The position numbers and the translations under genes are program-made. Below are positions 8,301 through 40,392 of a DNA stretch of 64,000 nt, in pieces. The first letter of the stretch is position 1. Every line of letters starts with the position of its first letter. This DNA comes from Candidatus Shapirobacteria bacterium (GTDB taxonomy: Bacteria; Patescibacteriota; Microgenomatia; UBA12405). The notes beneath the pieces are model-generated. The model saw only the letters and a program-made list of their open reading frames with translations. It searched no databases and was not told where the DNA came from. The stretch covers positions 128,693 through 192,692 of the forward strand of contig JAQWFB010000002.1 of assembly GCA_028704635.1 (NCBI GenBank). Reading direction: 5' to 3'.

Positions 8301-8314
8301 TTTAGTTTCTGAAT

Positions 8315-8431: not shown

Positions 8432-8539
8432 TTCAAAAACTAAACTTGTATCGAATTGTAATTATATTTCTAATTTCTTGTTTTAATTTGCTAAATTATT
8501 AAAATTTTTACTTGAAAAACTTTATAAACTTGACAAACT

Positions 8540-11590
<3,051 letters not shown>

Positions 11591-11764
11591 TCAATATTTG
11601 GCAACTCAATTTAGTTGCCAAGAATAAACGAAATTGAAATTAAATTACTTCGATTCAATAAATTGTTAATGTACAAATACTTAGTTTAAGGGAACAAATT
11701 TCTTTCTTCCCTTAGTTCTAACTACTTTATAACTTGATAAACTTTATAACTTTTTACTCAAGTG

Positions 11765-11838
11765 TGGACCTGGGGAGAGTCGAACTCCCGACCTCCTCAT
11801 TGCAAATGAGGCGCTATAACCAACTAAGCCACAGGCCC
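11765..11838 (-). tRNA. tRNA-Ala (anticodon UGC)
   Basis: The reverse complement GGGCCUGUGGCUUAGUUGGUUAUAGCGCCUCAUUUGCAAUGAGGAGGUCGGGAGUUCGACUCUCCCCAGGUCCA folds as a cloverleaf. The G3:U70 identity pair is present, the anticodon loop is UUUGCAA, and CCA is not encoded. Confidence 0.9.
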
Positions 11839-12092
11839 AAGTGCCCACTTCTTTAAAGTACTGCTTCGGGTTTATCCTGCCGTAGCCTTGGCGAAGGCGG
11901 ACATAAAAAAACCGAAAGCTCAATGCCTTCGGCCATTCCTTCATTATTCAACTTACTTTTTAAGCGGGCAATCCCCCTTTAATAAAGTTTTTATTGTTTT
12001 TTAGGTTGGTTTTCAGCATCTCGATAAGTGGAAGTATTCTACCTAATTTAGATATCTCCGTCAACACGCAAATTTGATTACAAACGAATCAC

Positions 12093-12734
12093 TTATTTCT
12101 TCATTTTTGCTTTCATTATTTCCACTCCAATCGGCACCACCGACACCCCAATTATCATCAACACCACATATTCAAAATTTTCTTTCATCACTGGAATATT
12201 CCCCAAGAAAAATCCTCCAAAAATAAACAAAGTATTCCACAATAAAGATCCGATCACACTAAAAGTTAAAAATTTCAAATAAGGCATCTTCCCGATTCCC
12301 GCCACAAATGGAGCGAATGTTCTCACTATCGGCACAAACCTCGCTAAAATCACCGCCTTTGTCCCATATTTAGCGTAAAAATCCTGCGTCTTTTCTAAAT
12401 GTTTTCTTTTAAATAATTTATTATTTGATTCAAACAGTTTTTGGCCAACCAATCTTCCCACCCAATAATTAACATTATCTCCTAAAAAAACTGCCGTTAT
12501 CAGTAAAAAATAAAGTCCTACTACATTAAACATTCCTTTAGCCGCCAAAGCTCCAGCCGCAAATAAAAGCGAATCACCCGGTAAAAACGGGGTAAACACC
12601 AATCCTGTCTCCATAAAAAGTATTCCTGCCAAAATTCCGTAACTTAAAGTACCGTATGTTTGGGTAATAATTAAAAGATGTTCATCAATATGTAAAACAA
12701 AATCAATTATGTTCATTAAAAATTCCATGTCCAA
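12093..12734 (-). CDS. DedA/SNARE-associated family membrane protein
   Basis: 213-aa polytopic protein with the DedA-type signature FTPFLPGDSLLFAAG and several TM helices. Confidence 0.75.
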   Translation of the reverse strand: MDMEFLMNIIDFVLHIDEHLLIITQTYGTLSYGILAGILFMETGLVFTPFLPGDSLLFAAGALAAKGMFNVVGLYFLLITAVFLGDNVNYWVGRLVGQKLFESNNKLFKRKHLEKTQDFYAKYGTKAVILARFVPIVRTFAPFVAGIGKMPYLKFLTFSVIGSLLWNTLFIFGGFFLGNIPVMKENFEYVVLMIIGVSVVPIGVEIMKAKMKK

Positions 12735-12751
12735 ATTATACAGTAATTAAA

Positions 12752-12803
12752 GCCTCCTTTTTCAAGGGAGGTGCCCCGCCAGCTGGCGGGGCGGAGGGTT
12801 TTT
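12752..12803. repeat. Palindromic element, intergenic (between DedA and GH18)
   Basis: GCCTCCTTTTTCAAGGGAGGTG + CCCCGCCAGCTGGCGGGG + CGGAGGGTTTTTAT. Confidence 0.8.
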
Positions 12804-12804
12804 A

Positions 12805-13950
12805 TCAAAATGATTTCATTATTTCCCATACTCTCTTGTCCTCCCCTTCGTATCCCAATGCCCAAAATCCTACTCCTCCCAACTGATTTTGTTTCACCAA
12901 ATCCAATTTTGCTTTCAAACTTCTCTCATTTTCAAAATATATTTGGTGTATTTCTCCACCTTCTTCAAACACCACCCACGGCGTCATCGATAATTCATCC
13001 CAATTAACCATCAAATTACTTGATGAACCTGATAAACTTTCTGACTTGATTAACTCATTTACTCTATTCCAACTAGCCATTTGATACCAACCTCTAATCA
13101 CTGGAGCTTCAAAATCTTTTGTATAAGTTTTCCATTCATATCCATAAAGCGGATAAACCATCACTATTTTTTCTTTATCAAAATTTAGACTTAAAATTTT
13201 TTCTACCACTTCCATTATATTTCTGTCTCCAACCTCTGATTGCATCGGTGCCACTGCTCCAGCATAATCCACCCCTGGTCGATGAAAATCATAAGCCATG
13301 ATAATTAAATTATCAACTGAATTAATTAGACTATTAATTTGCTCCGCCGATCCCTTATTAATAGTATTTACAAAAACATCTAAACTAATTTCTCCCAAAC
13401 CACTTTCTTTTAATTTAGCCATAAAACCAATCATTTTTTCCGATAAAACTGCCGTTGGATTTCCCTGATATTCAAAATCCACATTAATCCCATCAAACTT
13501 TTCCGTTTGCCGAAGAGTTTTTAATTGATTAATCAAATTATTTTGGGCTTCAATCGAAGCCATTAAACTATCAATTTTTTCATCAGTAAATAATTTAATT
13601 CCCAAAATATTTTTCCCGCCATTTTTCCAAATCAAATCTTTTTGCTTTAAATAAGTTTCATTATTTATTTTTTTCGATTGACCATCCCAAATCAAATTTC
13701 CTTTTTCATCCACTTCCACTCCCAAAAAAATCAGATAATCAACTTCATTAGTATATTCAATTGTTTTCCCAATCATCCAAGTTGGCAAAAAACCAAATAC
13801 TTTAATAGAAGCTCCCCTGTCAAGGGGAGATGCCCACAGGGCAGAGGGGTTTGTTCCTTTTGGATTTAAAATTTCTATATTTCCATTCCAATAAAAATAT
13901 CCCGCTAATATTATCAAAAATAATCCCAAACCCAAAAAAACCTTTTTCAT
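12805..13950 (-). CDS. Secreted glycoside hydrolase family 18 (chitinase-like) protein
   Basis: Has a signal peptide and the GH18 catalytic motif DGINVDFEY (DxxDxDxE), plus MAYDFH and LGGVGFWALG. It carries an in-frame palindromic-element insertion near the N-terminus (13812-13853). Confidence 0.7.
   Translation of the reverse strand: MKKVFLGLGLFLIILAGYFYWNGNIEILNPKGTNPSALWASPLDRGASIKVFGFLPTWMIGKTIEYTNEVDYLIFLGVEVDEKGNLIWDGQSKKINNETYLKQKDLIWKNGGKNILGIKLFTDEKIDSLMASIEAQNNLINQLKTLRQTEKFDGINVDFEYQGNPTAVLSEKMIGFMAKLKESGLGEISLDVFVNTINKGSAEQINSLINSVDNLIIMAYDFHRPGVDYAGAVAPMQSEVGDRNIMEVVEKILSLNFDKEKIVMVYPLYGYEWKTYTKDFEAPVIRGWYQMASWNRVNELIKSESLSGSSSNLMVNWDELSMTPWVVFEEGGEIHQIYFENERSLKAKLDLVKQNQLGGVGFWALGYEGEDKRVWEIMKSF
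13812..13853. repeat. Palindromic element inside the GH18 gene, in frame (encodes NPSALWASPLDRGAS)
   Basis: CTCCCCTGTCAAGGGGAGATG + CCCACAGGG + CAGAGGGGTTTG. Confidence 0.8.
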
Positions 13951-13981
13951 GCCCCTTATTCTACCAAAACCAAAAAATCTT

Positions 13982-14024
13982 TATAAAGTGCCCTGTCAAG
14001 GGAAAGGTGGTACGAAGTACCAAA
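13982..14024. repeat. Palindromic element, intergenic (between GH18 and tRNA-Ile)
   Basis: GCCCTGTCAAGGGAAAGGTG + GTACGAAGTAC + CAAAGGGTTTA. Confidence 0.7.
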
Positions 14025-14046
14025 GGGTTTAAACTTAACATTCAAG

Positions 14047-14120
14047 TGGGTGATGGAGGACTCGAACCTCCGACCCCCGTCTTATCAGGACGGTGCTCTA
14101 ACCAACTGAGCTAATCACCC
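14047..14120 (-). tRNA. tRNA-Ile (anticodon GAU)
   Basis: The reverse complement GGGUGAUUAGCUCAGUUGGUUAGAGCACCGUCCUGAUAAGACGGGGGUCGGAGGUUCGAGUCCUCCAUCACCCA has a perfect 7-bp acceptor stem. The anticodon loop is CUGAUAA and the T-loop is GGUUCGAGUCC. Confidence 0.9.
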
Positions 14121-14169: not shown

Positions 14170-15075
14170 TTATTGTCTTTTCAAAAACATCTCCACTACT
14201 GATTTTGCTACATTAATTCCAGTTGATTTTTCAAATCCTTGAAATTGACATTGTCGATTCACTTCCAAAACATAAGCATTCCCTTCACCATCTTTTATAA
14301 TATCTACTCCACAATAATCCAATCCACAAACTTTGGCCACTTTTTCTGCAATTTCTCTTTCTTTATCCGACAAATCCCAAGACTCCACATTTCCCCCTAA
14401 GCTAAAATTACTTCTAAATTCATCTCCTACTGCTGATCTTTTCATTGCTCCAATTGCCTTTCCATCTAAAACAATAATTCTCAAATCCCATCTAGTTGGT
14501 AAACATTTTTGCCATAAAAACATTCCCACATTTTTTTCATTAATTCTTCTCACAAATCTTCTTAATTCTTTAAAGTTTTCAAATTTTCTTACCGATTTAC
14601 CTTGAAACCCTCTTTCATGTTTGGCAATTATCGGCCATTCAAATTCTCTCCAAAACTTACTCTCTAGCACTTGTTCTTTAGTATAAAAAATTCTAGTTGG
14701 AATCACTGGCACCTCATTTTCTAAAAACACTCCATGTTGAGCAATTTTTCCCATTCTTGTCCAGTTCAAATATCCCTTTTTATTAGCACAAAATATTTCA
14801 CCACCTAAAATTCTCAAAGCTAAATTCCTCGCTTCAGTATATTTTCCCGTTCTCGTCCCAGCCACTCTAAACCACATTCCTAAAGTATTTTCCCCATTAA
14901 TTTCTTCTCCTTTAATAAAAACTTTCGCTTTTCCATTTTCCACATTAAAAGTTAAATCTTTGTAAAGAGATCTATTAACTTCTATCCCTAATTTCTTGGC
15001 TTCCGTTTCTAATCTATCAACTTCAAATTGGCTTTGTCTTAAAGACATTGTAAATGTGACTATTTTTTTATTCAT
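14170..15075 (-). CDS. RimK-type ATP-grasp ligase (alpha-L-glutamate-ligase-like)
   Basis: 301-aa protein with the ATP-grasp fold and signatures WPIIAKHERGFQGKSV, DLRIIVLDGKAIGAMKR and YVLEVN. Confidence 0.7.
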   Translation of the reverse strand: MNKKIVTFTMSLRQSQFEVDRLETEAKKLGIEVNRSLYKDLTFNVENGKAKVFIKGEEINGENTLGMWFRVAGTRTGKYTEARNLALRILGGEIFCANKKGYLNWTRMGKIAQHGVFLENEVPVIPTRIFYTKEQVLESKFWREFEWPIIAKHERGFQGKSVRKFENFKELRRFVRRINEKNVGMFLWQKCLPTRWDLRIIVLDGKAIGAMKRSAVGDEFRSNFSLGGNVESWDLSDKEREIAEKVAKVCGLDYCGVDIIKDGEGNAYVLEVNRQCQFQGFEKSTGINVAKSVVEMFLKRQ

Positions 15076-15096
15076 AATTATTTATTAATTTATAAG

Positions 15097-15135
15097 TCCC
15101 TCTTGTCAAAGAGGGATTTAGGGAGATTGAGCAAG
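15097..15135. repeat. Palindromic element (short form) that forms the C-terminal codons and stop of the RimK-like gene (15118)
   Basis: TCCCTCTTGTCAAAGAGGGA + TTTAGGGAGATTGAGC. Confidence 0.7.
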
Positions 15136-16095
15136 TGATACTAAAAATTTAACCATTTCCGCTGGCACATCAATCCCAGTTGCCTGCATAAATCCTTTAA
15201 ATTGCGGTCCTTTGTTCACTTCCCAAATCACCGGTGCCTTTAAATCATTATCCCTAAATGCCACATCCACCCCCGCCACCGCCAATCCACAAACCTTAGC
15301 CGCTTTGACTGCCAATTGTTTAATTTCTTCAGGTAATTCAGCCAACTCAACCTTTCCTCCGGCTGAATAATTATTTTTAAATTCATCTTTATTTTGACTA
15401 CTTCTTTTCATCACCCCCAACACTTTCTCCCCCAACACCAACACTCGATAATCCCCATCATTAGGAATAAACTCTTGCAACATATATCTTCTTCCTTCAT
15501 CAGTTTCACTTTTTCTCAAATCTCTTACCAATTTTTCCATTTGTTCTAAATTATCTGCCTTGTAAACTCTAGTTCCTCTATCCCCACCACTACCTTTAAT
15601 AATTACAGGCCAATCGTAAGGGCGGACCGATGTGTCCGCCTTCATTTGCTCATATAAATACCACAAACTTCCGTAAACTGTTTTTGGTACTTCTATTCCT
15701 GCCTTTTCCAAAGCCAACATTTGCCAAGCCTTACAAGCCATACTTGGTTTTCCATTTTCTACCAACGGATCAACGATGTACGGGCGACTCTTGTGGTCGC
15801 CCTTATTTATCTGATTAATAATCAAATCAACTTCTTCCCAATGTTTACCAGTGGTTCTAAAAAACAACACATCATAATCATCAATCTTTTTGTAATTATC
15901 AAATTGTTGAATTTTATTTTCTCCACTCAAATTTGGTCTAATTAAAATTTCTCTTTTTTCAGTATTAAAACAAACCCGATTATAAGACACCAAATCCAAA
16001 CTAACCCCCAATTTCCTAGCCGCCTTTTTAACCAACACTAAATGTTGGCTTATCTTTCCTCCAAAAAACACTGCTATTTTAGTTTGTTTATTCAT
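15118..16095 (-). CDS. RimK-type ATP-grasp ligase (second paralog)
   Basis: 325 aa, with ATP-grasp signatures WPVIIKGSGGDRGTRV, YRVLVLGEKVLGVMKR and VIWEVN. The C-terminal codons and the stop lie inside a palindromic element. Two GC-rich hairpins are embedded in frame. Confidence 0.7.
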   Translation of the reverse strand: MNKQTKIAVFFGGKISQHLVLVKKAARKLGVSLDLVSYNRVCFNTEKREILIRPNLSGENKIQQFDNYKKIDDYDVLFFRTTGKHWEEVDLIINQINKGDHKSRPYIVDPLVENGKPSMACKAWQMLALEKAGIEVPKTVYGSLWYLYEQMKADTSVRPYDWPVIIKGSGGDRGTRVYKADNLEQMEKLVRDLRKSETDEGRRYMLQEFIPNDGDYRVLVLGEKVLGVMKRSSQNKDEFKNNYSAGGKVELAELPEEIKQLAVKAAKVCGLAVAGVDVAFRDNDLKAPVIWEVNKGPQFKGFMQATGIDVPAEMVKFLVSLAQSP

Positions 16096-16126
16096 TTTTT
16101 AATTTTAATAATTAATTTTTAAGACT

Positions 16127-16184
16127 TCTCCCTTTGTTAAGGGGAGATGTCTCTCGCTACGCGAGAGACAGAGAGGTTTTTTAT
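16127..16184. repeat. Palindromic element, intergenic
   Basis: TCTCCCTTTGTTAAGGGGAGATG + TCTCTCGCTACGCGAGAGA + CAGAGAGGTTTTTTA. Confidence 0.8.
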
Positions 16185-17545
16185 TTCTTAGCACTAACTA
16201 AAAAATTACCTAAATCTTTTCTTCCTAATAAAAACTTTGTTCTTAATTTGCCTCTATCTGCCACATTCACTGCCGTTATTACTTTCTTCCCATTCAACCA
16301 AAAAGTAATTCCAATTACTGGTCGATCCACATGTTTTCCTAAACTTGATCGATAATTTCGATAATATAAAATTCTTTCTTTAGCTAATAACCCCAACCTT
16401 TGGGCCAAATCTCTATCTATCGAACTCCTAAACGCCCCAGTATCCACCTTAGCTCTCACATTTACCACCCGATGTTTTCCTTGTTTAACAATTGGACTTT
16501 TTTGTAAAACTGGTTTAAATCCTTTTGGAATTTTAACCTTAATTATTTCAATCGGCTCCACCATTTGTCTCTTTTCTTTTTCCTCTACCTTTTCAAAAAA
16601 ACTTTCTCCAAATAAATATTTAGCCAAAGTAATTGCATGATCCACACTTCTTACTGTAATTTCATCCACTTTCTCCATTCTTAATTTCAAGCCTGCCTTA
16701 TTACAAATCTGAATCGATAATCCCGGTCGAGCATTCACTTCCAACACCATCGGTCCTTTCTCTTTATCTAAAACCACATCCACCCCCATAAATCCTAAAG
16801 ACGGAATTGCTTTTTGACAATTAATTGCTGTCTCTAACACTTCTTTCCAAAATGGAATTTTAATTCCATTTACTTTTCTATTTTTCTTTTTTCCATAATC
16901 ATAAATTCGATAAATTGGTTCTCCTTTTCCTTCGACTCCAAAAGTAGTAATTCCTGTCGCCAAATCTACCCCTAAACCTATTGCTCCTTGCTGTAAATTT
17001 GCCTTACCTCCAGACTTTTCTGTTGGAATTCTAAACATCGCCATCACTGGTACATTATTATAAACAATCACTCTAATATCTGGTGTTCCCGCCTTAGTTA
17101 AAGACAAAAACAAGGGATGAATTTTAATTCTCTCTTCCACTATCACCTTATCTGGCATCGCATGTAAACTATATTTCCCTGCCACAATTTCTTGACAGTG
17201 TAAGTTTAAATCATTACTACTAATAATTTCTCCATTCATTTTTTGCCATTCACCTGCCCATTTCCCTCTTTTTCGAATAATCAAAATTCCTTCTCCGCCA
17301 TATCCCGATTCCGGCTTAATCACAAAATTTCCCTCCAAATCCTCCCATCTAAATTTTGCCAAATCCTGTTCATTTTTAAATCTAGCAATCAATTTTGGCA
17401 CCGACACTCCAGCCTTAGAAATTATTTTTTTAGTCTTAAATTTACTATCAGCAATTGCTCTTCCGCTAGCACTATTTTTCCTCAAATAAATTTTATTCCT
17501 CTCATTTTTAGTCAAAAATTGTCGATATTTTCTTAAATTAAACAT
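16181..17545 (-). CDS. ATP-grasp ligase fused to a C-terminal retropepsin-like domain (Pfam Zn_protease/DUF785-like)
   Basis: The N-terminal 300 aa form an ATP-grasp domain (FVIKPESGYGGEGILII, MVLEVNARPG). The C-terminal 120 aa carry the aspartyl-protease-like motif VDTGAFRSSI, typical of the RimK-associated protein family. Confidence 0.65.
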   Translation of the reverse strand: MFNLRKYRQFLTKNERNKIYLRKNSASGRAIADSKFKTKKIISKAGVSVPKLIARFKNEQDLAKFRWEDLEGNFVIKPESGYGGEGILIIRKRGKWAGEWQKMNGEIISSNDLNLHCQEIVAGKYSLHAMPDKVIVEERIKIHPLFLSLTKAGTPDIRVIVYNNVPVMAMFRIPTEKSGGKANLQQGAIGLGVDLATGITTFGVEGKGEPIYRIYDYGKKKNRKVNGIKIPFWKEVLETAINCQKAIPSLGFMGVDVVLDKEKGPMVLEVNARPGLSIQICNKAGLKLRMEKVDEITVRSVDHAITLAKYLFGESFFEKVEEKEKRQMVEPIEIIKVKIPKGFKPVLQKSPIVKQGKHRVVNVRAKVDTGAFRSSIDRDLAQRLGLLAKERILYYRNYRSSLGKHVDRPVIGITFWLNGKKVITAVNVADRGKLRTKFLLGRKDLGNFLVSAKK

Positions 17546-17566
17546 ATTAGTTTTACATTAATTAAG

Positions 17567-17616
17567 GCCTCCCTTCTTCAAGGGAGGCTCCCGGATTTAT
17601 CGGGTGGTGGGTTTAG
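17567..17616. repeat. Palindromic element, intergenic
   Basis: GCCTCCCTTCTTCAAGGGAGGCT + CCCGGATTTATCGGGTG + GTGGGTTTAG. Confidence 0.8.
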
Positions 17617-18469
17617 AACGTATCGCCCCTTTAAATCTCGTAATTTCCGTCAATCTAATTCCTGAATAATTACCAATCATCAAATTTGACACCAATACTA
17701 CTAGTATTATCATTTCTGGATATCTCAAAACCAAATTTTGAATTGAACCAAGACTCATAACCATCGCCCCCGCCAAAGCCAAAACTATGGTTCCCGCCAT
17801 TAATTTTTTGGCTTCTTTTTTACTTTTAACCAATTGCGTTCTTACAAATTCCTCTGCCAAAAGTATCATAAATAAAATTGGAAAAATTGAAATCTCGCTA
17901 ATATCAATTATATTTACAAAACTGGTCAATAACATCAATGCAAATACAGCCACAGAAATAAACATTAAATTAATTGCCCTCGCTGGCCAAAAATGAATCT
18001 TAAATTTTTTCAAAATCATATTACCTAAAAGAGAAATTGCCAAAATCAAAGCAAATAACAACAGTCCTCCAAAAAATCCTGTTGATAAAAAAGCCACTGC
18101 AATCATCGTTGGCATAAAAATGCCATAACCTGACAAACCTACCACATAATGTAAAAATGATACTAAAGTTGCTATCAATGGTAATAATAACAACAAAACT
18201 ATTGTGTTGGTTGATACACCTCTATCAATTGCTGTCTTTATCATCCATCTAAAACTATTAAACCCATTCCACTTACCCACTTCATAACTAATTTTATTAC
18301 TTTTTGCTTCAGTGATATTAATCGTCGGCACTGCCGTCGGTATTAACGTTGCTGTTGGAGTTGCTGTTGTCGTCGGGGTAATTATTGTTGTCTTTGCCAA
18401 AATTGGCTCAACATTTAAAAGAAAACTAAAACCAAAAACTATAAATAGTAGGGCAGCTATTTTTTTCAT
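17597..18469 (-). CDS. Seven-TM membrane protein, resembling the 7TM module linked to ATP-grasp peptide-ligase systems
   Basis: Has a signal peptide and a Thr/Pro-rich linker (TPTTTATPTATLIPTAVPT), followed by about seven hydrophobic helices. It is the first gene of the minus-strand ATP-grasp operon. Confidence 0.5.
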   Translation of the reverse strand: MKKIAALLFIVFGFSFLLNVEPILAKTTIITPTTTATPTATLIPTAVPTINITEAKSNKISYEVGKWNGFNSFRWMIKTAIDRGVSTNTIVLLLLLPLIATLVSFLHYVVGLSGYGIFMPTMIAVAFLSTGFFGGLLLFALILAISLLGNMILKKFKIHFWPARAINLMFISVAVFALMLLTSFVNIIDISEISIFPILFMILLAEEFVRTQLVKSKKEAKKLMAGTIVLALAGAMVMSLGSIQNLVLRYPEMIILVVLVSNLMIGNYSGIRLTEITRFKGAIRSKPTTR

Positions 18470-18570
18470 TAATTAATTTTACTTTATAATTTAATAAACT
18501 TTTTAACTTGATGATCTAATTTGTGGCGTATTATAACACCCTTTTTTCAAAAAAAACCATTAGTTTTATT

Positions 18571-18598
18571 GTAGGGTCCAGGCATGCCTGGACCCTAA
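18571..18598. repeat. Perfect palindrome GTAGGGTCCAGGCATGCCTGGACCCTAA (family copy 3), in the divergent region between the ATP-grasp operon and the pilin array
   Basis: Exact 26-bp inverted repeat with the same core. Confidence 0.85.
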
Positions 18599-18634
18599 TT
18601 ATTTAAAATATATTTTTCCCACAAAAATAATCAT

Positions 18635-18651
18635 TTTTATAGTATAATTCA
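18635..18651 (+). promoter_or_regulatory. Extended -10 promoter TTTTATAGTATAATT (TATAAT at 18644-18649), giving a near-leaderless transcript for pilin gene 1
   Basis: The identical 15-mer recurs at 20533-20547, upstream of pilin gene 6. Only 5-9 nt separate the -10 element from each ATG. Confidence 0.55.
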
Positions 18652-18658
18652 AACAAAT

Positions 18659-18991
18659 ATGAACTCCGTTTTAGCTTTTAATCTCAAAGATATCCAACTC
18701 GGACAAAACTCTAGTACCCTTGGTGGCAGTTATGCCACCACCAGTTCTCTTATTTCCATCATTCTCAAAACTTCTATTACTGTCGCCAGTATTATTTTTC
18801 TTGGTCTTTTGATTTTTGGTGGTATTACCTTTATAATGAACGCAGGTAGTGGTGATCCTAAAAAAGCTGGCCAAGGCCAAGCCGCCATCACCAATGCTTT
18901 AATTGGATTTGCTATTGTGCTTTTAGCCTATACCATCATCCAAATTATTGAAGTTATTACTGGATTAAACATTTTAAATCCAAATTTATAA
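18659..18991 (+). CDS. Small two-TM pilin-like protein (VirB2/TrbC-like topology), paralog 1 of 6
   Basis: 110 aa with TM1, then NAGSGDPKKAGQGQAAITNALIGFAIV, then TM2, and a conserved C-terminal tail ...GLNILNPNL. Confidence 0.6.
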   Translation: MNSVLAFNLKDIQLGQNSSTLGGSYATTSSLISIILKTSITVASIIFLGLLIFGGITFIMNAGSGDPKKAGQGQAAITNALIGFAIVLLAYTIIQIIEVITGLNILNPNL

Positions 18992-18997
18992 TTAATT

Positions 18998-19300
18998 ATG
19001 GCAACCTTTGGAAACATTTCCAACCCCACTTCTTTTGTTAGTGGCCCTCAAGGCTTCTTCGATTTTTTAAGCGCCATTTTTAAAGTTGCTGGCACCGTCG
19101 CTGGTATTTTTTTCATCGTCAAAATTATTCTCGCTGGATTCAAATATCTCAATGCTGGTGGTGACGAAAAGAAAACTGCCCAAGCTTGGGCCACTATCTG
19201 GCAAAGTATGATCGGTTTTGCCATCGTCGCTTCCGCTTTCGTCCTTGCTGGTGTTATTGGTAATTTATTTGGCATTAATATTCTCAATCCCACTCTATGA
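18998..19300 (+). CDS. Two-TM pilin-like protein, paralog 2
   Basis: 100 aa. Has TM1, the loop LNAGGDEKKTAQAW, TM2 and the tail FGINILNPTL. Confidence 0.6.
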   Translation: MATFGNISNPTSFVSGPQGFFDFLSAIFKVAGTVAGIFFIVKIILAGFKYLNAGGDEKKTAQAWATIWQSMIGFAIVASAFVLAGVIGNLFGINILNPTL

Positions 19301-19647
19301 ACCATCTAACTAATCAATTATTAGCGTATACTCTCACCGGTCCTGGAATTGCTGTTACTTCCGGTGCCGATTCCATTTCTACTCTCGAAAAAATTATTAG
19401 TTCTATTATTGGTATCTTAACCATAGTTGGCGTCATCTATTTCACCATCCAAATAATTTTAGCCGGTTTTTCCTTAATCGCTTCCCAGGGTGATCCAAAA
19501 GAATTTCAATCTAGTAAAAAAAGATTAACCACTAATGTTATTGGATTAGTCATTATTATCATTGCCTACGGGCTTGGTGCCCTAATTGCCAGCTTGCTTG
19601 GCATGAATAGTATTTTCGATTTATCAACCGTTTTTCAACCAATATAA
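19297..19647 (+). CDS. Two-TM pilin-like protein, paralog 3
   Basis: 116 aa with TM1, ASQGDPKEFQSSKKRLTTNVIGLVIII and TM2. Overlaps the previous gene by 4 nt. Confidence 0.6.
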   Translation: MNHLTNQLLAYTLTGPGIAVTSGADSISTLEKIISSIIGILTIVGVIYFTIQIILAGFSLIASQGDPKEFQSSKKRLTTNVIGLVIIIIAYGLGALIASLLGMNSIFDLSTVFQPI

Positions 19648-19648
19648 T

Positions 19649-19975
19649 ATGGCTATCACCAATCCTGTCTTAAAAAATAGTTCTAATATCAGCAGTAACC
19701 CCATTGCTTACACTAATAGTGTCATTCAAACCATTATTTCCATCTTTTTTATTTTTGGTCTTATTTATTTCATTTACCACATCGTCCTTTCTGGTTACAA
19801 AATGATTTCTTCCCAAGGAGATCCAAAAAAATACGAAGAAGCTCAACACAGTCTTACTTATGCCGTCATTGGTATCGCTATTGTCTTTTCCATTTTTGCC
19901 TTACTTAAAGTTATTGGTAGTATTTTTGGCATCATCGGCCTAGAAACTTTAACCATTAGTTGGCCATCCCTTTAA
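19649..19975 (+). CDS. Two-TM pilin-like protein, paralog 4
   Basis: 108 aa with TM1, SSQGDPKKYEEAQHSLTYAVIGIAIV and TM2. Confidence 0.6.
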   Translation: MAITNPVLKNSSNISSNPIAYTNSVIQTIISIFFIFGLIYFIYHIVLSGYKMISSQGDPKKYEEAQHSLTYAVIGIAIVFSIFALLKVIGSIFGIIGLETLTISWPSL

Positions 19976-20025
19976 TATTTCAAATTTACTGGTAAAATTA
20001 ATTAATAGTTATTAAATCAAAAAAA

Positions 20026-20406
20026 ATGATCAAAGAAATCAAAAACAAAATTCAATTTGCCGCCATTGCTGCTCCAGTCTACGCTGCTCAAAGTTTAGAA
20101 CTTACTGGTAAAAGTGATAGTTTCACCAATCTCGAAAATTTAACTGTTAATGGTATGGTTTCTGGTGCTATTAGTTTGGTTTTAATTGTGGTTTCATTAG
20201 TTTTCTTCTTTATTCTTGTCATTGGTGGTCTTAAATGGATCACTTCTGGTGGCGACGAAAAGAAAGTTGCTGCCGCTCGTGCTCAAATCACCAATGCCTT
20301 AATTGGCTTAGTTATCGTTTTCGCTGCTTGGGCCATTATGAAACTAATTGGTTCACTCTTCGGTATTGATATTCTTGGAACTTTAACTTTTCCTACTTTC
20401 CAATAA
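20026..20406 (+). CDS. Two-TM pilin-like protein, paralog 5
   Basis: 126 aa with TM1, TSGGDEKKVAAARAQITNALIGLVIVF and TM2. Confidence 0.6.
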   Translation: MIKEIKNKIQFAAIAAPVYAAQSLELTGKSDSFTNLENLTVNGMVSGAISLVLIVVSLVFFFILVIGGLKWITSGGDEKKVAAARAQITNALIGLVIVFAAWAIMKLIGSLFGIDILGTLTFPTFQ

Positions 20407-20425
20407 AATCAAATTAATTTTTGTT

Positions 20426-20457
20426 GTAGGGGCAGACCATTGTGTCTGCCCCTTTTC
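20426..20457 (+). terminator. Intrinsic terminator after pilin gene 5
   Basis: The sequence GTAGGGGCAGACCATTGTGTCTGCCCC forms a GC-rich stem and is followed by TTTT. Confidence 0.6.
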
Positions 20458-20532
20458 GTTTAAATAGGTCTAAATTTGAACCTTAAGGCCAAATTTTGCC
20501 TATTTACACGACCCCGATTTATCGGGGTATAT

Positions 20533-20547
20533 TTTATAGTATAATTA
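20533..20547 (+). promoter_or_regulatory. Second copy of the TTTTATAGTATAATT promoter, upstream of pilin gene 6
   Basis: Identical 15-mer, 5 nt upstream of the ATG at 20552. It is preceded by a CGACCCCGATTTATCGGGGTA hairpin. Confidence 0.55.
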
Positions 20548-20551
20548 ACCT

Positions 20552-20902
20552 ATGAATTTAATCTCAAAAATATTTTCTCCCACCCCTATCTGCGCTGCTG
20601 ATTGGAGTAGTACTTGTGTTAAAGATACTGATGTTGCCACCATTCAAGGTTTCAATTGTCTTTTTGCCAATATTGCCCAAGTTATCATCTATTTTGCTGG
20701 TATTGTCTTTTTTATTATGTTTATTCGTGGCGGCTTCAGTTATTTAACTTCTGGTGGTGACCCAAAAAAAACTGCTAAAGCCAATTCCACTCTTACTCTG
20801 GCTGTTATTGGTTTAGTCGGAGTCATTATTTCCTTTTTAATCATCACCTTCATCGGCGACTTTACCGGTGTCAATGTTACTGAATTCAATATCCCTAATT
20901 AA
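20552..20902 (+). CDS. Two-TM pilin-like protein, paralog 6
   Basis: 116 aa with TM1, LTSGGDPKKTAKANSTLTLAVIGLVGV and TM2. Confidence 0.6.
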   Translation: MNLISKIFSPTPICAADWSSTCVKDTDVATIQGFNCLFANIAQVIIYFAGIVFFIMFIRGGFSYLTSGGDPKKTAKANSTLTLAVIGLVGVIISFLIITFIGDFTGVNVTEFNIPN

Positions 20903-22383
20903 TGAAACGACTTTTAATCGTTTTATTATTTTTCTTATTTTTATTCCCCTCCTTGTCAAGGGAGGGGTCAGGGGTGGGTTTTGTTTATGCCCAATCAACT
21001 ACTATCACTGAAAATCAAACTACTACAACCACTACCCCTCCAGAAGAAAGTTTATTGACTAAATTTTGGAGTTGGATTTCCAAAGTTTTTATTAAAACTG
21101 ATTACACCATCGCCCAACGACCATCCGATGAAATTAATTCTGACATGACCGACTATGATACTGCATCCGACAACCGTAAACACTCTTCCTCTGGTACTCG
21201 TCTTACTGACTCTTCCAGTCAAACTTGTTACAAAGGCAATGTTATCAAAAAAGTTATTTTAGGTGAATACCAAGATTCCGACATTTCTCACATTTGTCCC
21301 GATCCATCAGACTCAAACAAATGTATTGTTTCGTCCGATTCAACTTGTAAACTAATAAAAATTAGTGATCTCGCTCATTATTTTGTTCAAACTCAAAAAC
21401 AATTTTATTGCGCAGGAAATAAATTAACTAATACTGAAAGTAATGTTATCGATAAAGTTAATGAAAAATATTCCAATTCCATTTCCTCTAATGACTTAGA
21501 TTGCTACCAAACTATTTACAACGATTTTTATTTAGTTCCCAAAGAAAGTGTTGAAAATGAAGAAAATTCCAAAAACATAGTTCAAACTCCTATTTCTGCC
21601 GGTGATCAAAAATCAGGTTCCATTAGTGATACTAAAGATCAGCTTAATAAAAATTTTGTTCCCGCTAATCAAAGCTGGGATGGTTTAAGTAGTCTTCGTC
21701 CCCAAAGTTGGGGTAAAGGTTCATCGGGAATTAGTTGGGGTACTAGTGGTGAATTTAACGGTGGTGGTACCAGTTCTGGTACCTGTAATGCCATTGATAG
21801 CCACTGTCGAGGCATGAGCCTTTACGGTGCTCTCGGTCTTTCTCAATCAGGTAAAAATTACGAAGAAATTCTTAATTTTTTTTATGGCAGTATCTCTCTA
21901 AAAACTATTAATACTTCCAATACTAATATTTCTGTTAAAACCGACAGTAACGACGATTGCTCTAGTTATCAACCATTAAATCTTGAAACTTACCTTAGTG
22001 GTCTTGGAGAAATGTCTGATTATTGGGGTGATCCTAGCACCAACGGCTATGAGAGCATGAAAGCTTTAGTAGTTGCTGCCCGTACCTATGCTTATGTTGC
22101 CACCCAAAATTTCACCCAACCAATCTGTAGTAATTCCAATTGTCAAAATTTTCATTGCAGTGTTATCAAAACTAAACCTAATTTAGATCGAGCCATCAAA
22201 GAAACTCAAGGTCAAATTATTGTCGATAGCACTAATCAAACCCCATTTTTAACCGAATACGCTCGTTCATTTTGTGGTCCATCTAAAACTGTTGTTTTTT
22301 CCAACCACACCAATACTTCAGTCAATGGTTATGAATATGAACTCAAAGCTCTCAGCGGCGACTCCCCATTCTGCCTCAATTAA
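20902..22383 (+). CDS. Secreted Cys-rich protein with a C-terminal SpoIID/LytB-like domain (putative cell-wall lytic factor)
   Basis: Has a signal peptide and a Thr-rich linker (TTTITENQTTTTTTPPEE). Near the C-terminus the motifs ESMKALVVAARTYAYVATQN and CQNF match the SpoIID signature. The signal-peptide region contains an in-frame palindromic element (20945-20985). Confidence 0.5.
   Translation: MKRLLIVLLFFLFLFPSLSREGSGVGFVYAQSTTITENQTTTTTTPPEESLLTKFWSWISKVFIKTDYTIAQRPSDEINSDMTDYDTASDNRKHSSSGTRLTDSSSQTCYKGNVIKKVILGEYQDSDISHICPDPSDSNKCIVSSDSTCKLIKISDLAHYFVQTQKQFYCAGNKLTNTESNVIDKVNEKYSNSISSNDLDCYQTIYNDFYLVPKESVENEENSKNIVQTPISAGDQKSGSISDTKDQLNKNFVPANQSWDGLSSLRPQSWGKGSSGISWGTSGEFNGGGTSSGTCNAIDSHCRGMSLYGALGLSQSGKNYEEILNFFYGSISLKTINTSNTNISVKTDSNDDCSSYQPLNLETYLSGLGEMSDYWGDPSTNGYESMKALVVAARTYAYVATQNFTQPICSNSNCQNFHCSVIKTKPNLDRAIKETQGQIIVDSTNQTPFLTEYARSFCGPSKTVVFSNHTNTSVNGYEYELKALSGDSPFCLN
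20945..20985. repeat. Palindromic element inside the SpoIID-like gene (encodes PSLSREGSGVGFV in the signal-peptide region)
   Basis: CCCCTCCTTGTCAAGGGAGGGG + TCAGGGG + TGGGTTTTGTTT. Confidence 0.75.
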
Positions 22384-22428
22384 ACAAATTTCAACAATCT
22401 CTACCCTGCTAGTTGGTAAATATTTTTT

Positions 22429-40381: not shown

Positions 40382-40392
40382 TTATACTAAAA

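What the first reader, a model, noticed from the sequence alone, without database searches (positions are those of the whole stretch)
14170..18469. Operon of three ATP-grasp (RimK-type) ligases, one fused to a retropepsin-like domain, plus a 7TM membrane protein: a peptide-ligase/modification system of unknown target
Four co-directional minus-strand genes are tightly spaced: a 7TM protein with a Thr/Pro-rich extracellular linker, an ATP-grasp fused to a DTGA-type retropepsin-like C-terminal domain, and two RimK-like ATP-grasps. RimK-type enzymes add poly-alpha-glutamate or other amino-acid tails to proteins or make small peptides. Neighbourhoods combining RimK-like ligases, the RimK-associated protease-like domain and 7TM modules have been predicted on computational grounds to make or modify peptides at the membrane, but they have essentially not been characterised experimentally. 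This copy sits directly opposite the pilin array, with a shared divergent promoter region containing a perfect palindrome. One speculative reading is that the target is a secreted or pilus protein.
Basis: partly seen in the sequence, partly recalled or inferred. Interest (0 to 1): 0.75.

Follow-up and report, generated by a model that had tools for sequence, protein, structure and literature searches.

The report
Rlo-like membrane-coupled peptide ligase–protease operon
This is a real, strongly conserved four-gene operon in an ultrasmall (Candidatus Shapirobacteria) bacterium: a seven-helix membrane protein, a peptide-bond-forming enzyme fused to a small protease that probably cuts glutamate chains, and two further ligases. 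It is a compact, previously undescribed variant of the recently characterised Rlo/Rim systems of Pseudomonas, and its target is still unknown.

Summary
Four co-directional minus-strand genes (14170-18469) encode:
- a signal peptide, Thr/Pro linker and 7TM protein (PF14402, the RloB membrane half);
- a 454-aa fusion of an ATPgrasp_ST/RloC-type ligase to a RimB/RloA-type retropepsin domain (KVDTGA intact);
- two distinct RimK-family ligases.

The organism is a Candidatus Shapirobacteria (Patescibacteria) MAG.

In 143 related loci, the 7TM gene sits directly upstream of the fusion gene in 115 of 116 informative cases, and neighbouring genes often overlap by 4 nt. RimK genes downstream vary from 0 to 3. 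In other lineages they are replaced by a MATCAP carboxypeptidase, either free-standing or fused.

The divergent "pilin array" is a VirB2-like type IV secretion (T4SS) pilin array. It is linked to the operon only in the Shapirobacteria clade (43/44 loci, against 7/42 in a diverse set). The perfect palindrome is a dispersed, non-conserved repeat.

The system is no longer uncharacterised. rloABC (2025) and RimK/RimB/RimBK are close experimental relatives.

Best reading: a cytoplasmic, membrane-docked ligase/endopeptidase complex that makes and trims acidic (probably α-glutamyl) peptide chains. The 7TM partner would act as platform or conduit. The target is unknown.

Verdict: new variant of a known kind, moderate interest.

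The parts
17597..18469 (-). RloB-like 7TM membrane protein without the transglutaminase domain. It has a signal-like helix (aa 4-24), a Thr/Pro-rich linker (aa 26-55), a short conserved ectodomain segment, seven TM segments (aa 89-271) and a basic cytoplasmic tail carrying the conserved G-x-Y-x-G-x-R-x-x-E-x-x-R-F motif.
   Evidence: ORF. PF14402 6.7e-27 and NF052267 RloB 2e-17 (7TM half only). Hydropathy. Conservation across 109 homologues. The top 120 database homologues are all PF14402-only, 285-300 aa.
16181..17545 (-). Fusion protein (454 aa): an N-terminal RloC/ATPgrasp_ST-type ligase and a C-terminal RimB/RloA-type retropepsin domain. It has no signal peptide or hydrophobic segment, so it is cytoplasmic.
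   Evidence: Continuous ORF of the same architecture in 62 genome loci and 80 metagenome loci. 37 close homologues align at 75-91% identity.
16664..17500 (-). ATP-grasp ligase domain of the fusion (aa 16-294). The DIRVIV, ANLQQGA, GVDVV and LEVNARPG motifs are present.
   Evidence: PF14397 215.5 bits (cut-off 31.4), residues 16-294. TIGR02291 269.1 bits (cut-off 314.2), residues 9-295. Invariant residues.
16184..16564 (-). Retropepsin-like domain of the fusion (aa about 328-454), with one catalytic Asp per chain. It therefore needs to homodimerise to be active.
   Evidence: PF05618 26.7 bits. NCBIfam RloA2, RimB and RloA3 weak hits. Profile A2 against PDB: 9g59 (RloA2) 1.4e-9, 9g58 (RloA) 3.5e-9, 2pma (DUF785) 1.3e-5. 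Foldseek hits are all retropepsin folds.
16433..16450 (-). Active-site motif K366-V-D368-T-G-A371. Together with R408 (RPV) and R431 (DR), it matches RloA residues K46, D48, R114 and R137, which coordinate poly-glutamate.
   Evidence: Translation. Invariant. Alignment to the RloA structures. Residue roles from PMC12239564. The R-to-R spacing of 23 is identical.
15118..16095 (-). RimK-family ATP-grasp ligase 'RimK_a' (325 aa). It has its own conserved N-terminal domain. The catalytic K, QE, DxR, NNYSxGG, GVD and EVN motifs are intact.
   Evidence: PF08443 8.6e-28. TIGR00768 135.6 bits (cut-off 143.4). Aligns to E. coli RimK 5zct at 2.9e-16. Clade conservation.
14170..15075 (-). RimK-family ATP-grasp ligase 'RimK_b' (301 aa), 31% identical to RimK_a, with a different conserved N-terminal domain. 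It carries a clade-wide Q-K in place of the hinge Q-E.
   Evidence: PF08443 2.9e-29. TIGR00768 129.8 bits (cut-off 143.4). Pairwise comparison. Conservation.
17567..17588 (-). GC-rich hairpin in the 7TM-to-fusion spacer (-19.1 kcal/mol for the 51-nt spacer).
16127..16170 (-). Two adjacent GC-rich hairpins in the fusion-to-RimK_a spacer (-25 kcal/mol for the 85-nt spacer).
15097..15116 (-). GC-rich hairpin in the RimK_a-to-RimK_b spacer.
18470..18658 (.). Divergent intergenic region between the operon and the T4SS pilin array. It must hold both promoters, but no conserved operator was found.
18572..18597 (.). Perfect 26-nt palindrome TAGGGTCCAGGCATGCCTGGACCCTA. It is a member of a dispersed repeat and is not conserved in orthologous spacers.
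18659..20902 (+). Neighbour, not shown to be part of the system: an array of six VirB2-like T4SS pilin genes.
   Evidence: PF18895. Synteny. Literature PMC12102498.

Best explanation
**What it is.** A Patescibacterial version of the Rlo/Rim peptide-ligase plus retropepsin systems, in a streamlined and rearranged form.

**Shown by the sequence**
- One operon encodes a 7TM membrane protein homologous to the membrane half of RloB.
- It encodes a soluble fusion of an RloC-type ATP-grasp ligase with a RimB/RloA-type retropepsin domain.
- It encodes two non-redundant RimK-family ligases.
- All three ligases keep the ATP-grasp catalytic motifs.
- The protease domain keeps the catalytic Asp and the Lys/Arg/Arg residues that bind poly-glutamate in RloA.

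**Inferred mechanism**
1. On the cytoplasmic face of the membrane, the fusion's ligase domain uses ATP to add amino acids to a carboxylate acceptor or to a growing free chain. The amino acid is most likely L-glutamate in α-linkage, as for RimK.
2. The fusion dimerises through its retropepsin domains. This both completes the protease active site and places it next to the ligase.
3. As RimB does for RimK, the protease cuts chains beyond about 5-8 residues and stimulates turnover. The complex therefore limits tail length or releases short acidic oligopeptides.
4. RimK_a and RimK_b have different, highly conserved N-terminal domains. They add further residues (priming, extension or capping). They are accessory, because other lineages have 0-3 of them or a MATCAP carboxypeptidase instead.
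5. The 7TM protein is the obligatory partner. It docks the complex, plausibly through its conserved basic C-terminal tail. It either conducts the product to the cell surface or presents or senses something outside through its lineage-variable ectodomain.

The acceptor or target is not identified.
For: - **Domain assignments:**
- **Catalytic and poly-Glu-binding residues:** K366, D368, R408 and R431 are invariant. They align with RloA K46, D48, R114 and R137, whose mutation abolishes polyE cleavage (PMC12239564).
- **ATP-grasp motifs kept in both RimK paralogues:**
- **Cytoplasmic location of all three ligases, and N-out/C-in 7TM topology:**
- **Operon:** spacers of 42-85 nt here. Median spacers are 0.5-5 nt with 4-nt overlaps in diverse relatives.
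- **Obligatory 7TM-fusion pairing:** 115/116 loci.
- **Modular third component:** 0-3 RimK genes, free MATCAP in 13 loci, and fused MATCAP in many roughly 790-aa representatives.
- **Purifying selection:** the fusion is the best-conserved protein of the region. In L025, for example, identities are fusion 71%, RimK 67-70%, 7TM 61%, pilins 46-61% and neighbours 44-52%.
- **Experimental precedents:** RimB stimulates RimK poly-α-L-Glu synthesis and trims Glu tails. An active RimB-RimK hybrid exists (PMC11957791). Deleting rloB or rloC suppresses loss of the RloA proteases, which places 7TM, ligase and protease in one pathway (PMC12239564).
Against: - No substrate or product is identified, and amino-acid specificity of ATP-grasp ligases cannot be read from sequence.
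- The curated NCBIfam cut-offs are missed: TIGR02291 269 against 314, TIGR00768 130 and 136 against 143, RloB 63 against 900.
- The transglutaminase domain that defines RloB is absent.
- RloA is secreted whereas the protease here is cytoplasmic, so the Pseudomonas topology cannot simply be transferred.
- The D. psychrophila RimBK hybrid showed protease activity but no RpsF glutamylation (PMC11957791).
- RimK_b carries a clade-wide Q-K change at the nucleotide-binding hinge.
- The AlphaFold model of the fusion is poor (pLDDT 54).
- The 7TM model (pLDDT 67) has no convincing solved structural relative. Its role as conduit, anchor or sensor is undecided.
Confidence: 0.55

Rival explanations
1. 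Envelope building. The ligases add amino acids to a cell-wall or surface-polymer precursor, such as a peptidoglycan stem-peptide branch or a surface glycopolymer. The 7TM protein flips or exports the decorated precursor, and the retropepsin domain edits it.
For: - Pfam names PF14397 'sugar-transfer associated'.
- Pseudomonas rlo mutants have cell-shape, beta-lactam and hypo-osmotic phenotypes that point to the wall (PMC12239564).
- Neighbours in this clade include GH18 and SpoIID-domain wall enzymes.
- The ectodomain of the 7TM partner varies between lineages: transglutaminase, PKD or a Thr/Pro linker. Nine loci encode a separate secreted transglutaminase-core protein nearby.
- From my own knowledge, ATP-grasp enzymes do build peptidoglycan branches (D-aspartate ligase of Enterococcus).
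Against: - GH18 and SpoIID are part of clade-wide synteny and are absent from the diverse loci.
- No glycosyltransferase or Mur-type gene is consistently linked.
- The conserved Lys/Arg/Arg pocket of the protease points to poly-anionic peptide substrates.
- The 7TM model resembles no known flippase.
Confidence: 0.15
2. The two RimK paralogues are ordinary soluble glutamyl ligases for a cytoplasmic target such as ribosomal protein S6 or a cofactor. They travel with the 7TM-fusion pair only by operon history.
For: - Their best characterised relatives are RimK, LysX, MptN and CofF.
- RimK genes are dispensable for the core: 15 of 52 diverse loci have none.
- RimK-RimB pairs act on S6 (PMC11957791).
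Against: - Scores against the S6-ligase equivalog are 63-69 bits, against a cut-off of 331.
- When present they are immediately downstream, often overlapping the fusion gene by 4 nt.
- RimK_a homologues are confined to this lineage: 487 hits, and the top 120 are all from this clade.
- Patescibacteria lack the F420, methanopterin and LysW pathways (own knowledge).
- No S6 gene lies in the window, so its C-terminus could not be checked.
Confidence: 0.12
3. Pilin or T4SS modification. The ligases modify the VirB2-like pilins encoded divergently, or another T4SS part, for example at the conserved cytoplasmic G-G-D-P/E-K-K loop.
For: - The divergent arrangement with the six-gene pilin array is kept in 43/44 Shapirobacteria-type genome loci, even though pilin identity falls to 40-60%.
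- 192 of 324 pilins carry an acidic residue in the loop motif.
- From the literature, an ATP-grasp enzyme (CfmP) is needed for a fimbrial modification in Klebsiella (PMC13419641).
Against: - The linkage vanishes outside the clade. 35 of 42 diverse loci with at least 3 kb upstream have no pilin gene, and L056 and L062 have ParA, RuvC or glycogen-synthase neighbours instead.
- The whole region, including tRNA-Ile, GH18 and DedA, is syntenic in the clade, so adjacency may be inherited rather than functional.
- No shared conserved operator was found.
- Pilin C-termini are not acidic: 4 of 324.
- CfmP belongs to a different ATP-grasp family (TupA-like).
Confidence: 0.07
4. Signal transduction. The 7TM protein is a receptor whose variable ectodomain senses an external cue. 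It switches the cytoplasmic ligase/protease between making and destroying a poly-anionic peptide that stays inside the cell, as an osmolyte, amino-acid store or regulator.
For: - A conserved 7TM core carries a lineage-variable ectodomain.
- Ligase and protease are both cytoplasmic here.
- Free poly-α-Glu is made by RimK plus RimB in vivo. Glutamate is an osmolyte, and the rlo phenotypes are osmotic (PMC11957791 and PMC12239564).
Against: - In Pseudomonas the proteases act outside the cytoplasm, which implies that the product crosses the membrane.
- No known signalling domain is present.
- There is no structural similarity to known 7TM receptors.
Confidence: 0.1

Closest known systems
rloABC operon of Pseudomonas aeruginosa (RloA retropepsin, RloB inactive-transglutaminase-7TM protein, RloC ATP-grasp); PMC12239564
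   Same: - The same three protein families sit in one operon: PF14402 7TM, PF14397/TIGR02291 ATP-grasp and PF05618 retropepsin.
- The catalytic DTGA motif and the Lys/Arg/Arg poly-Glu pocket are conserved.
- The ligase is cytoplasmic.
- The substrate is unknown in both.
   Different: - The protease is fused to the C-terminus of the ligase and has no signal peptide, so it is cytoplasmic. RloA is a free, secreted enzyme.
- The 7TM protein lacks the transglutaminase domain. It has a 64-aa ectodomain with a Thr/Pro linker.
- Two extra RimK-family ligases are present.
- The host is a Patescibacterium, whereas RloB was reported as 96% proteobacterial.
- NCBIfam cut-offs are not reached.
RimK/RimB (RimABK) ribosomal S6 poly-glutamylation module and the RimBK hybrid of Desulfotalea psychrophila; PMC11957791, PMC7343187, PMC10092738
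   Same: - A cytoplasmic ATP-grasp ligase is paired, or here fused, with a cytoplasmic retropepsin of the same family.
- Two genuine RimK-family ligases are in the operon.
- There is experimental precedent that such a protease both trims Glu chains and stimulates the ligase.
   Different: - In RimBK the protease is N-terminal and the ligase is RimK itself. Here the order is reversed and the fused ligase is of the RloC family (no significant similarity to RimK_a; best BLASTP segment 33% over 43 aa, E = 0.025).
- There is no RimA/EAL partner.
- A 7TM partner is obligatory.
- The RimK paralogues score far below the S6-ligase equivalog.
7TM_transglut / ATPgrasp_ST / DUF785 / DUF1704 neighbourhoods predicted computationally by Iyer, Abhiman, Burroughs and Aravind 2009 (Mol Biosyst 5:1636). 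Cited from memory and from reference lists; the paper itself could not be opened.
   Same: The same domain families and the same general prediction: peptide synthesis or modification at the membrane.
   Different: As far as I could check, the Patescibacterial ligase-retropepsin fusion, the transglutaminase-less 7TM partner and the RimK-or-MATCAP alternation are not described. No held paper combines RimK with Patescibacteria, or MATCAP with bacterial ATP-grasp enzymes.
Eukaryotic tubulin-tail code enzymes (TTL/TTLL ATP-grasp ligases, MATCAP and CCP peptidases); own knowledge
   Same: - It shares the logic of reversible, ATP-grasp-driven addition of Glu or Tyr to an acidic tail, opposed by dedicated peptidases.
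- Sister loci and fusions carry a MATCAP-family domain.
- The fusion gives a weak PF03133 TTL hit (5.7e-4).
   Different: - There is no tubulin-like target.
- This window has no MATCAP gene.
- The similarity to TTL is below threshold.

Membership tests
Rlo system (rloABC) | RloC-type ATP-grasp ligase (PF14397 / TIGR02291) | tested here: met
   PF14397 scores 215.5 bits against a cut-off of 31.4 over the full profile. TIGR02291 gives 4e-80, but 269.1 bits is below its equivalog cut-off of 314.2. This is family-level membership, not an equivalog.
Rlo system (rloABC) | RloB: 7TM domain of the PF14402 family | tested here: met
   PF14402 scores 95 bits against a cut-off of 25. The RloB model matches only positions 312-506 of 508. 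Seven hydrophobic segments.
Rlo system (rloABC) | RloB: periplasmic inactive transglutaminase domain fused to the 7TM | tested here: not met
   No transglutaminase hit. Only about 64 residues lie between the signal peptide and TM1. RloB model 63 bits against a cut-off of 900. All top 120 homologues are PF14402-only.
Rlo system (rloABC) | RloA: retropepsin fold with DTG and a basic poly-Glu pocket | tested here: met
   KVDTGA. Profile against 9g59 and 9g58 at 1.4e-9 and 3.5e-9. Foldseek retropepsin hits. K366, R408 and R431 invariant.
Rlo system (rloABC) | RloA: free-standing, secreted (signal peptide) | tested here: not met
   The domain is the C-terminus of a 454-aa protein with no hydrophobic segment.
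Rlo system (rloABC) | The three functions encoded in one operon | tested here: met
   Adjacent and co-directional, with 7TM next to the fusion in 115/116 loci.
Rlo system (rloABC) | Protease cleaves poly-glutamate of at least 8 residues; role in osmotic and envelope stress | not testable with these tools
   Needs enzyme assays and genetics. Only conservation of the binding residues could be checked.
RimK family alpha-L-glutamate ligases (TIGR00768) | RimK-type ATP-grasp domain with catalytic motifs | tested here: met
   PF08443 scores 102.4 and 97.7 bits against a cut-off of 21. The K, DxR, (S/N)NxSxGG, GVD and EVN motifs align with E. coli RimK. RimK_b has Q-K in place of the hinge Q-E.
RimK family alpha-L-glutamate ligases (TIGR00768) | Score above the curated subfamily cut-off | tested here: not met
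   129.8 and 135.6 bits against a cut-off of 143.4, so narrowly below. NCBI annotates the orthologues as hypothetical proteins.
Ribosomal protein S6--L-glutamate ligase RimK (NF007764 equivalog) | Equivalog-level similarity; S6 with a C-terminal Glu-Glu acceptor | tested here: not met
   63.2 and 68.8 bits against a cut-off of 331. S6 itself is not in the window, so its C-terminus could not be examined.
RimBK hybrid (PMC11957791) | RimB domain N-terminal to a RimK ligase in one polypeptide | tested here: not met
   Here the ligase is N-terminal, the protease is C-terminal, and the ligase belongs to PF14397 rather than RimK.
   GshB 16-63 bits against cut-offs of 272-299. Cyanophycin synthetase 26-37 bits against 850.
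Graspetide / RiPP ATP-grasp maturases | Maturase-type ATP-grasp plus an adjacent precursor peptide gene | tested here: not met
   TIGR04187, TIGR04185 and TIGR04184 score 21-29 bits against cut-offs of 350-475. Spacers of 42-85 nt leave no room for a precursor ORF.
Anti-phage defence systems (PADLOC) | Match to any defence-system protein model | tested here: not met
   No hit for any of the four proteins at E<=0.01.
VirB2-like T4SS pilins (neighbouring array) | PF18895 / PF04956 match, about 100-126 aa, two hydrophobic helices | tested here: met
   PF18895 scores 28.8 bits against a cut-off of 26.6 for the first gene. Precomputed PF18895 and PF04956 hits on five array genes.

The most novel reading that the evidence does not exclude
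In Shapirobacteria the module is functionally wired to the divergently encoded VirB2-like pilin array and T4SS-like machine near the replication origin. A reversible, ATP-grasp-driven poly-amino-acid modification, opposed by the in-cis retropepsin (a bacterial 'tail code'), would act on a pilin cytoplasmic loop or another T4SS part. It would control assembly of the apparatus these episymbionts are thought to use on their hosts. More broadly, the sister systems combining a TTL-like ligase, a retropepsin and a MATCAP domain in Patescibacteria would be prokaryotic counterparts of the eukaryotic tubulin tyrosination/glutamylation cycle.
Probability: 0.07. Interest if true: 0.85.

Novelty: new variant of a known kind. 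Interest (0 to 1): 0.45.

Why it matters
**Bearing on the open Rlo question.** The Rlo system was named only in 2025. It matters for envelope integrity, antibiotic tolerance and biofilms in Pseudomonas, yet nobody knows what RloC makes, what RloB does or what RloA cuts.

**What this locus adds**
- The same three functions are widespread and under strong purifying selection in Patescibacteria, far outside the Proteobacteria where RloB was thought to be confined.
- Here the system is reduced to two obligatory proteins: a 7TM protein and a ligase-protease fusion.
- The fusion places ligase and protease on the same (cytoplasmic) side. That constrains models of the pathway.
- It offers a minimal pair for biochemical reconstitution and structure determination.
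- The alternation between extra RimK ligases and a MATCAP carboxypeptidase at the third position suggests the product is a peptide chain whose C-terminal end is extended or trimmed.

**For Patescibacteria.** In organisms with very small genomes, a four-gene ATP-consuming module that is better conserved than its neighbours is likely to be physiologically important.

Tried and rejected
- **Palindrome as a shared operator: rejected.** CAGGCATGCCTG is absent from every orthologous divergent spacer that could be read (49 of the 50 listed; L002's is N-masked), including the 94%-identical relative L003. Near-copies lie at 4620 and 6926.
- **Pilin linkage as a general feature: rejected.** Only 7 of 42 diverse loci have it.
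- **Glutathione synthetase, cyanophycin synthetase, graspetide or defence-system readings: rejected** on model scores.
- **Search for an encoded acceptor with an acidic C-terminus** among all neighbourhood families: none found.
- **Search for other universally linked genes:** none beyond 7TM, fusion, RimK and MATCAP. The L7/L12-L10-L1-L11-NusG, MnmA and UvrA neighbours look like lineage synteny.
- **AlphaFold2 of the whole fusion** with a shallow alignment (75-91% identical sequences): poor, mean pLDDT 54. Only the retropepsin part was usable.
- **Iyer et al. 2009** could not be opened.
- **No S6 gene in the window**, so the S6 C-terminus was not examined.
- **Pfam's RimK N-terminal domain model** gave no hit at E<=0.01 for either RimK paralogue.

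Full report
**1. What is in the sequence**

They are separated by 51, 85 and 42 nt.

Pfam and NCBIfam scans assign them as follows:
- The first protein matches PF14402, '7TM helices usually fused to an inactive transglutaminase' (6.7e-27). It also matches the C-terminal half of the NCBIfam model for RloB (2e-17, profile positions 312-506 of 508).
- The second matches PF14397 ATPgrasp_ST (1.1e-63) and TIGR02291 'alpha-L-glutamate ligase-like protein' (4e-80). It also has a C-terminal PF05618 (Zn_protease, now called RimB-like) match just under threshold.
- The last two match PF08443 RimK (about 1e-28 each).

A hydropathy scan finds a signal-like helix and seven hydrophobic segments in the 290-aa protein, and none in the three ligases. 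Residues 26-55 are 53% Thr+Pro. The C-terminal tail has six basic residues and one acidic residue, which fits an N-out/C-in topology. The retropepsin signature K-V-D-T-G-A is encoded at 16433-16450.

One refinement: only two of the ligases are RimK-type. The fused one shows no significant similarity to RimK_a (best BLASTP segment 33% over 43 aa, E = 0.025).

**2. Organism and context**

Identical proteins lie on Candidatus Shapirobacteria MAG contigs, and close homologues carry Shapirobacteria or Woesebacteria names.

The window also holds:
- 23S and 5S rRNA, tRNA-Ala and tRNA-Ile;
- dnaA, dnaN, yidC and jag;
- a VirB4/TraG-like ATPase and a PrgI/VirB3-like protein.

The operon therefore lies about 20 kb from the replication-origin region, which also carries a T4SS-like gene set. 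This matches what has been described for Patescibacteria (PMC12102498).

The six small genes facing the operon (18659-20902) are VirB2-like T4SS pilins (PF18895 and PF04956), not type IV pili. Such arrays are already known to be abundant in Microgenomatia.

**3. The protease domain**

The isolated C-terminal 127 residues give weak hits to the NCBIfam models RloA2, RimB and RloA3, and to PDB 9g59.

A profile built from 16 diverse fused homologues (A2) hits:
- 9g59 (P. aeruginosa RloA2) at 1.4e-9;
- 9g58 (P. fluorescens RloA) at 3.5e-9;
- 2pma (Legionella DUF785) at 1.3e-5;
- retroviral, Ddi1 and ApRick proteases at about 5e-3.

The full-length AlphaFold model is poor (pLDDT 54, though about 70-85 in this domain). 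Even so, Foldseek returns only retropepsin folds, including the two RloA structures.

Four residues are invariant: K366, D368, R408 and R431. They align with RloA K46, D48, R114 and R137, and the Arg-Arg spacing of 23 is the same. In RloA these residues line the poly-glutamate channel, and R114A and R137A abolish cleavage and complementation (PMC12239564).

One Asp per chain means the domain must dimerise to be active. Some distant clades of the family have lost DTG. This clade has not.

**4. The ligases**

All three keep the ATP-grasp Mg- and ATP-binding motifs. RimK_a and RimK_b were aligned directly with E. coli RimK; for the fusion the motifs were read from its sequence and are invariant among 37 close homologues.

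RimK_a and RimK_b are 31% identical. Each has its own strongly conserved N-terminal domain, so they are not redundant. RimK_b carries a clade-wide Q-K in place of the hinge Q-E.

On the curated models:
- They score just below the RimK subfamily cut-off (130 and 136 against 143).
- They score far below the equivalogs for S6 ligase, LysX, MptN, CofF, glutathione synthetase and cyanophycin synthetase.
- RiPP maturase models and defence-system models are also negative.

**5. Conservation and modularity**

The fusion has 6859 relatives with E<=1e-5; the best 120 are 75-97% identical and of the same length. In a library clustered at 50% identity, 372 representatives score at or below 1e-30.

I scanned one genome per species and obtained 62 loci. 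A metagenome scan seeded with distant homologues gave 80 more. A synteny script gave these results:

| Feature | Species-genome set | Diverse metagenome set |
|---|---|---|
| 7TM gene immediately upstream of the fusion | 57/57 | 58/59 |
| Downstream RimK-type genes | two in 27, one in 9, three in 1, none in 1 | one in 19, two in 16, none in 15, three in 2 |
| Divergent pilin array | 43/44 | 7/42 (all Shapirobacteria-type) |

Gene spacers in the diverse set have medians of 0.5-5 nt and include many 4-nt overlaps. That is strong evidence for an operon.

Loci without RimK mostly carry a free-standing MATCAP (PF08014) carboxypeptidase gene at the same position (13 loci). Many representatives of about 790 aa are ligase-retropepsin-MATCAP triple fusions.

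The ectodomain of the 7TM partner varies:
- a Thr/Pro linker here;
- a PKD domain in L062;
- a separately encoded secreted transglutaminase-core protein nearby in nine loci.

The core is therefore the 7TM protein plus the ligase-protease fusion. The third component is an exchangeable peptide-end-modifying enzyme.

Within the Shapirobacteria clade, the fusion is the best-conserved protein of the region. In L025, for example, identities are: fusion 71%, RimK 67-70%, 7TM 61%, pilins 46-61%, and other neighbours 44-52%.

**6. The pilin link and the palindrome**

The divergent pilin array is specific to the clade (table above). L056 and L062 have ParA, RuvC or glycogen-synthase neighbours instead. 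In the clade the whole region is syntenic, including tRNA-Ile, GH18, DedA and tRNA-Ala downstream. Adjacency may therefore be inherited rather than functional.

The 26-nt perfect palindrome is real. However, it is missing from every orthologous spacer that could be read (L002's is N-masked), and it has near-copies at 4620 and 6926. It is a dispersed repeat.

No pilin or other neighbourhood protein has a conserved acidic C-terminus.

**7. Comparison with what is known**

The closest system is rloABC of P. aeruginosa (PMC12239564). RloA retropepsins cleave poly-Glu of at least 8 residues. RloB is an inactive-transglutaminase-7TM protein and RloC is a cytoplasmic ATP-grasp enzyme. Deleting rloB or rloC suppresses the hypo-osmotic lethality of the triple protease mutant. 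The substrate is unknown, and RloB was reported as 96% proteobacterial.

The second relative is RimK/RimB (PMC11957791). RimB trims Glu tails from S6 and stimulates RimK to make free poly-α-L-glutamate. A natural RimB-RimK hybrid from Desulfotalea is an active protease.

The present locus differs in these ways:
- It combines an RloB-type membrane partner without the transglutaminase domain with an RloC-type ligase.
- The retropepsin is fused behind the ligase and is cytoplasmic, like RimB and unlike RloA.
- It has two additional RimK-family ligases.

I found no paper describing this arrangement or any RimK-type system in Patescibacteria. The general domain neighbourhood was predicted by Iyer et al. 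2009. I cite that from memory and from reference lists, because the paper could not be opened.

**8. Mechanism**

*Shown:* the domain composition, the conserved catalytic and substrate-pocket residues, the cytoplasmic location of the ligases and protease, the operon structure, and the obligatory 7TM-fusion pairing.

*Inferred by homology:*
- ATP-dependent α-linked addition of an amino acid, most likely L-Glu;
- dimerisation of the fusion through the retropepsin domains;
- endoproteolytic length control and stimulation of the ligase;
- accessory extension or capping by RimK_a and RimK_b.

*Inferred from linkage and Pseudomonas genetics:* the 7TM protein docks the complex and passes the product outward, or senses through its ectodomain.

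The 7TM fold gave no clue.

I put 0.55 on this general reading. The rivals, and the refuting results for each, are listed separately: envelope-precursor decoration (0.15), independent soluble RimK targets such as S6 (0.12), a receptor-controlled intracellular polymer (0.10), and pilin/T4SS modification (0.07).

**9. Verdict**

It is not uncharacterised territory any more, though, and the pilus link and the palindrome do not hold up as evidence.

It is a new variant of a known kind. Interest is moderate at 0.45. It extends a newly named, medically relevant but mechanistically unsolved system to Patescibacteria, in a minimal and rearranged form. That form constrains the topology of the pathway and is well suited to reconstitution.

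Noticed in passing
window 8314-14120 (tRNA-Ile 14046-14120, GH18 12805-13950, DedA/VTT 12093-12734, tRNA-Ala 11764-11838, 23S 8626-11590, 5S 8314-8430; all minus strand): The rRNA operon is split. tRNA-Ile(GAT) follows the ATP-grasp operon by 49 nt. Two protein genes sit between tRNA-Ile and tRNA-Ala, and no 16S gene is in the window, so the ligase operon occupies the place where 16S would normally be. tRNA-Ile lies downstream of the module in 14 of 14 Shapirobacteria loci checked, followed by tRNA-Ala in the 12 whose flank extends far enough. Read-through from the operon into tRNA-Ile was not tested.
   Followed up: partly
window 4619-4642, 6925-6948, 18572-18597: A dispersed GC-rich palindrome, TAGGG-T/G-n-CAGGCATGCCTG-n-ACCCTA, occurs three times in 64 kb (0 expected by chance). 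All copies are intergenic. It is absent from orthologous spacers of relatives. It could be a small mobile hairpin repeat or a genome-specific protein-binding site.
   Followed up: partly
window 17567-17588, 16127-16170, 15097-16116 region spacers; also 1185-1206, 5518-5539, 12773-12792: Short GC-rich stem-loops of the type CCCTC-TTGNCAA-GAGGG sit in many intergenic spacers of this AT-rich genome, including all three spacers inside the operon. They have no clear U-tail. Spacers in Shapirobacteria relatives are also strongly structured (median about -20 to -25 kcal/mol), whereas other lineages simply overlap the genes. Possible roles are attenuators, processing sites or mRNA-stability elements.
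   Followed up: partly
window 38517-50189: This is the replication-origin neighbourhood: jag 38517-38984, yidC 39049-39846, dnaA 40739-42082 and dnaN 42394-43512. Next to it is a T4SS-like set, with a VirB4/TraG-like ATPase at 45982-48570 and a PrgI/VirB3-like protein at 49278-50189. This matches the origin-proximal T4SS described for Patescibacteria (PMC12102498). GC skew stays strongly negative across dnaA and only turns at about 60 kb.
   Followed up: no
L142 4875-5999; L065 3346-5379; L062 8517-9986; L138 10193-11161; proteins P0128, P0138, P0149, P0153, P0143, P0129: Sister architectures occur in other Patescibacterial lineages:
- 7TM-fusion-MATCAP operons;
- ligase-retropepsin-MATCAP triple fusions of about 790 aa;
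- one fusion with a YdjC domain;
- a PKD-domain 7TM partner;
- a separately encoded secreted transglutaminase-core protein;
- an extra divergent ATP-grasp gene.

Some of these clades have lost the DTG motif. I found no paper describing a bacterial ligase/MATCAP pairing in the held library.
   Followed up: partly
window 14170-15075 and orthologues: The RimK_b clade has a conserved Q-K (LWQKxLP) where RimK, RimK_a and most ATP-grasp enzymes have Q-E at the nucleotide-binding hinge. This may mean altered nucleotide use or a regulatory rather than catalytic subunit.
   Followed up: no
L064-L143 (e.g. L095 8702-9217, L103 12016-12612, L112 9113-9595, L113 14228-14857): In 17-20 of the 80 diverse metagenome loci, the ribosomal L7/L12-L10 genes lie a few kb downstream on the opposite strand. 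L1, L11 and NusG are sometimes there too (families named from their sequences, not profile-tested). This is probably lineage synteny, but it is noted because RimK enzymes modify a ribosomal protein.
   Followed up: no
L002, L008-L012, L014, L015 and others; L030: Many species-representative MAG records that carry this typical Patescibacterial locus are titled 'uncultured Gammaproteobacteria bacterium', and one is titled 'Candidatus Methanoperedens sp.'. These look like mislabelled records or mis-binned contigs.
   Followed up: no
window 20902-23997 and 24063-26321: Downstream of the pilin array are three proteins:
- a 493-aa secreted protein with a C-terminal SpoIID domain;
- a 522-aa polytopic membrane protein with no Pfam match, a possible VirB6 analogue, conserved with the array in 39 loci;
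- a 752-aa protein with no Pfam match on the opposite strand.
   Followed up: no
window 59500-60003 and 58263-58715: A small GGDEF-domain protein and a PspC-domain membrane protein are encoded about 40 kb from the operon. c-di-GMP regulates RimK in Pseudomonas (PMC7343187), but no link is shown here.
   Followed up: no
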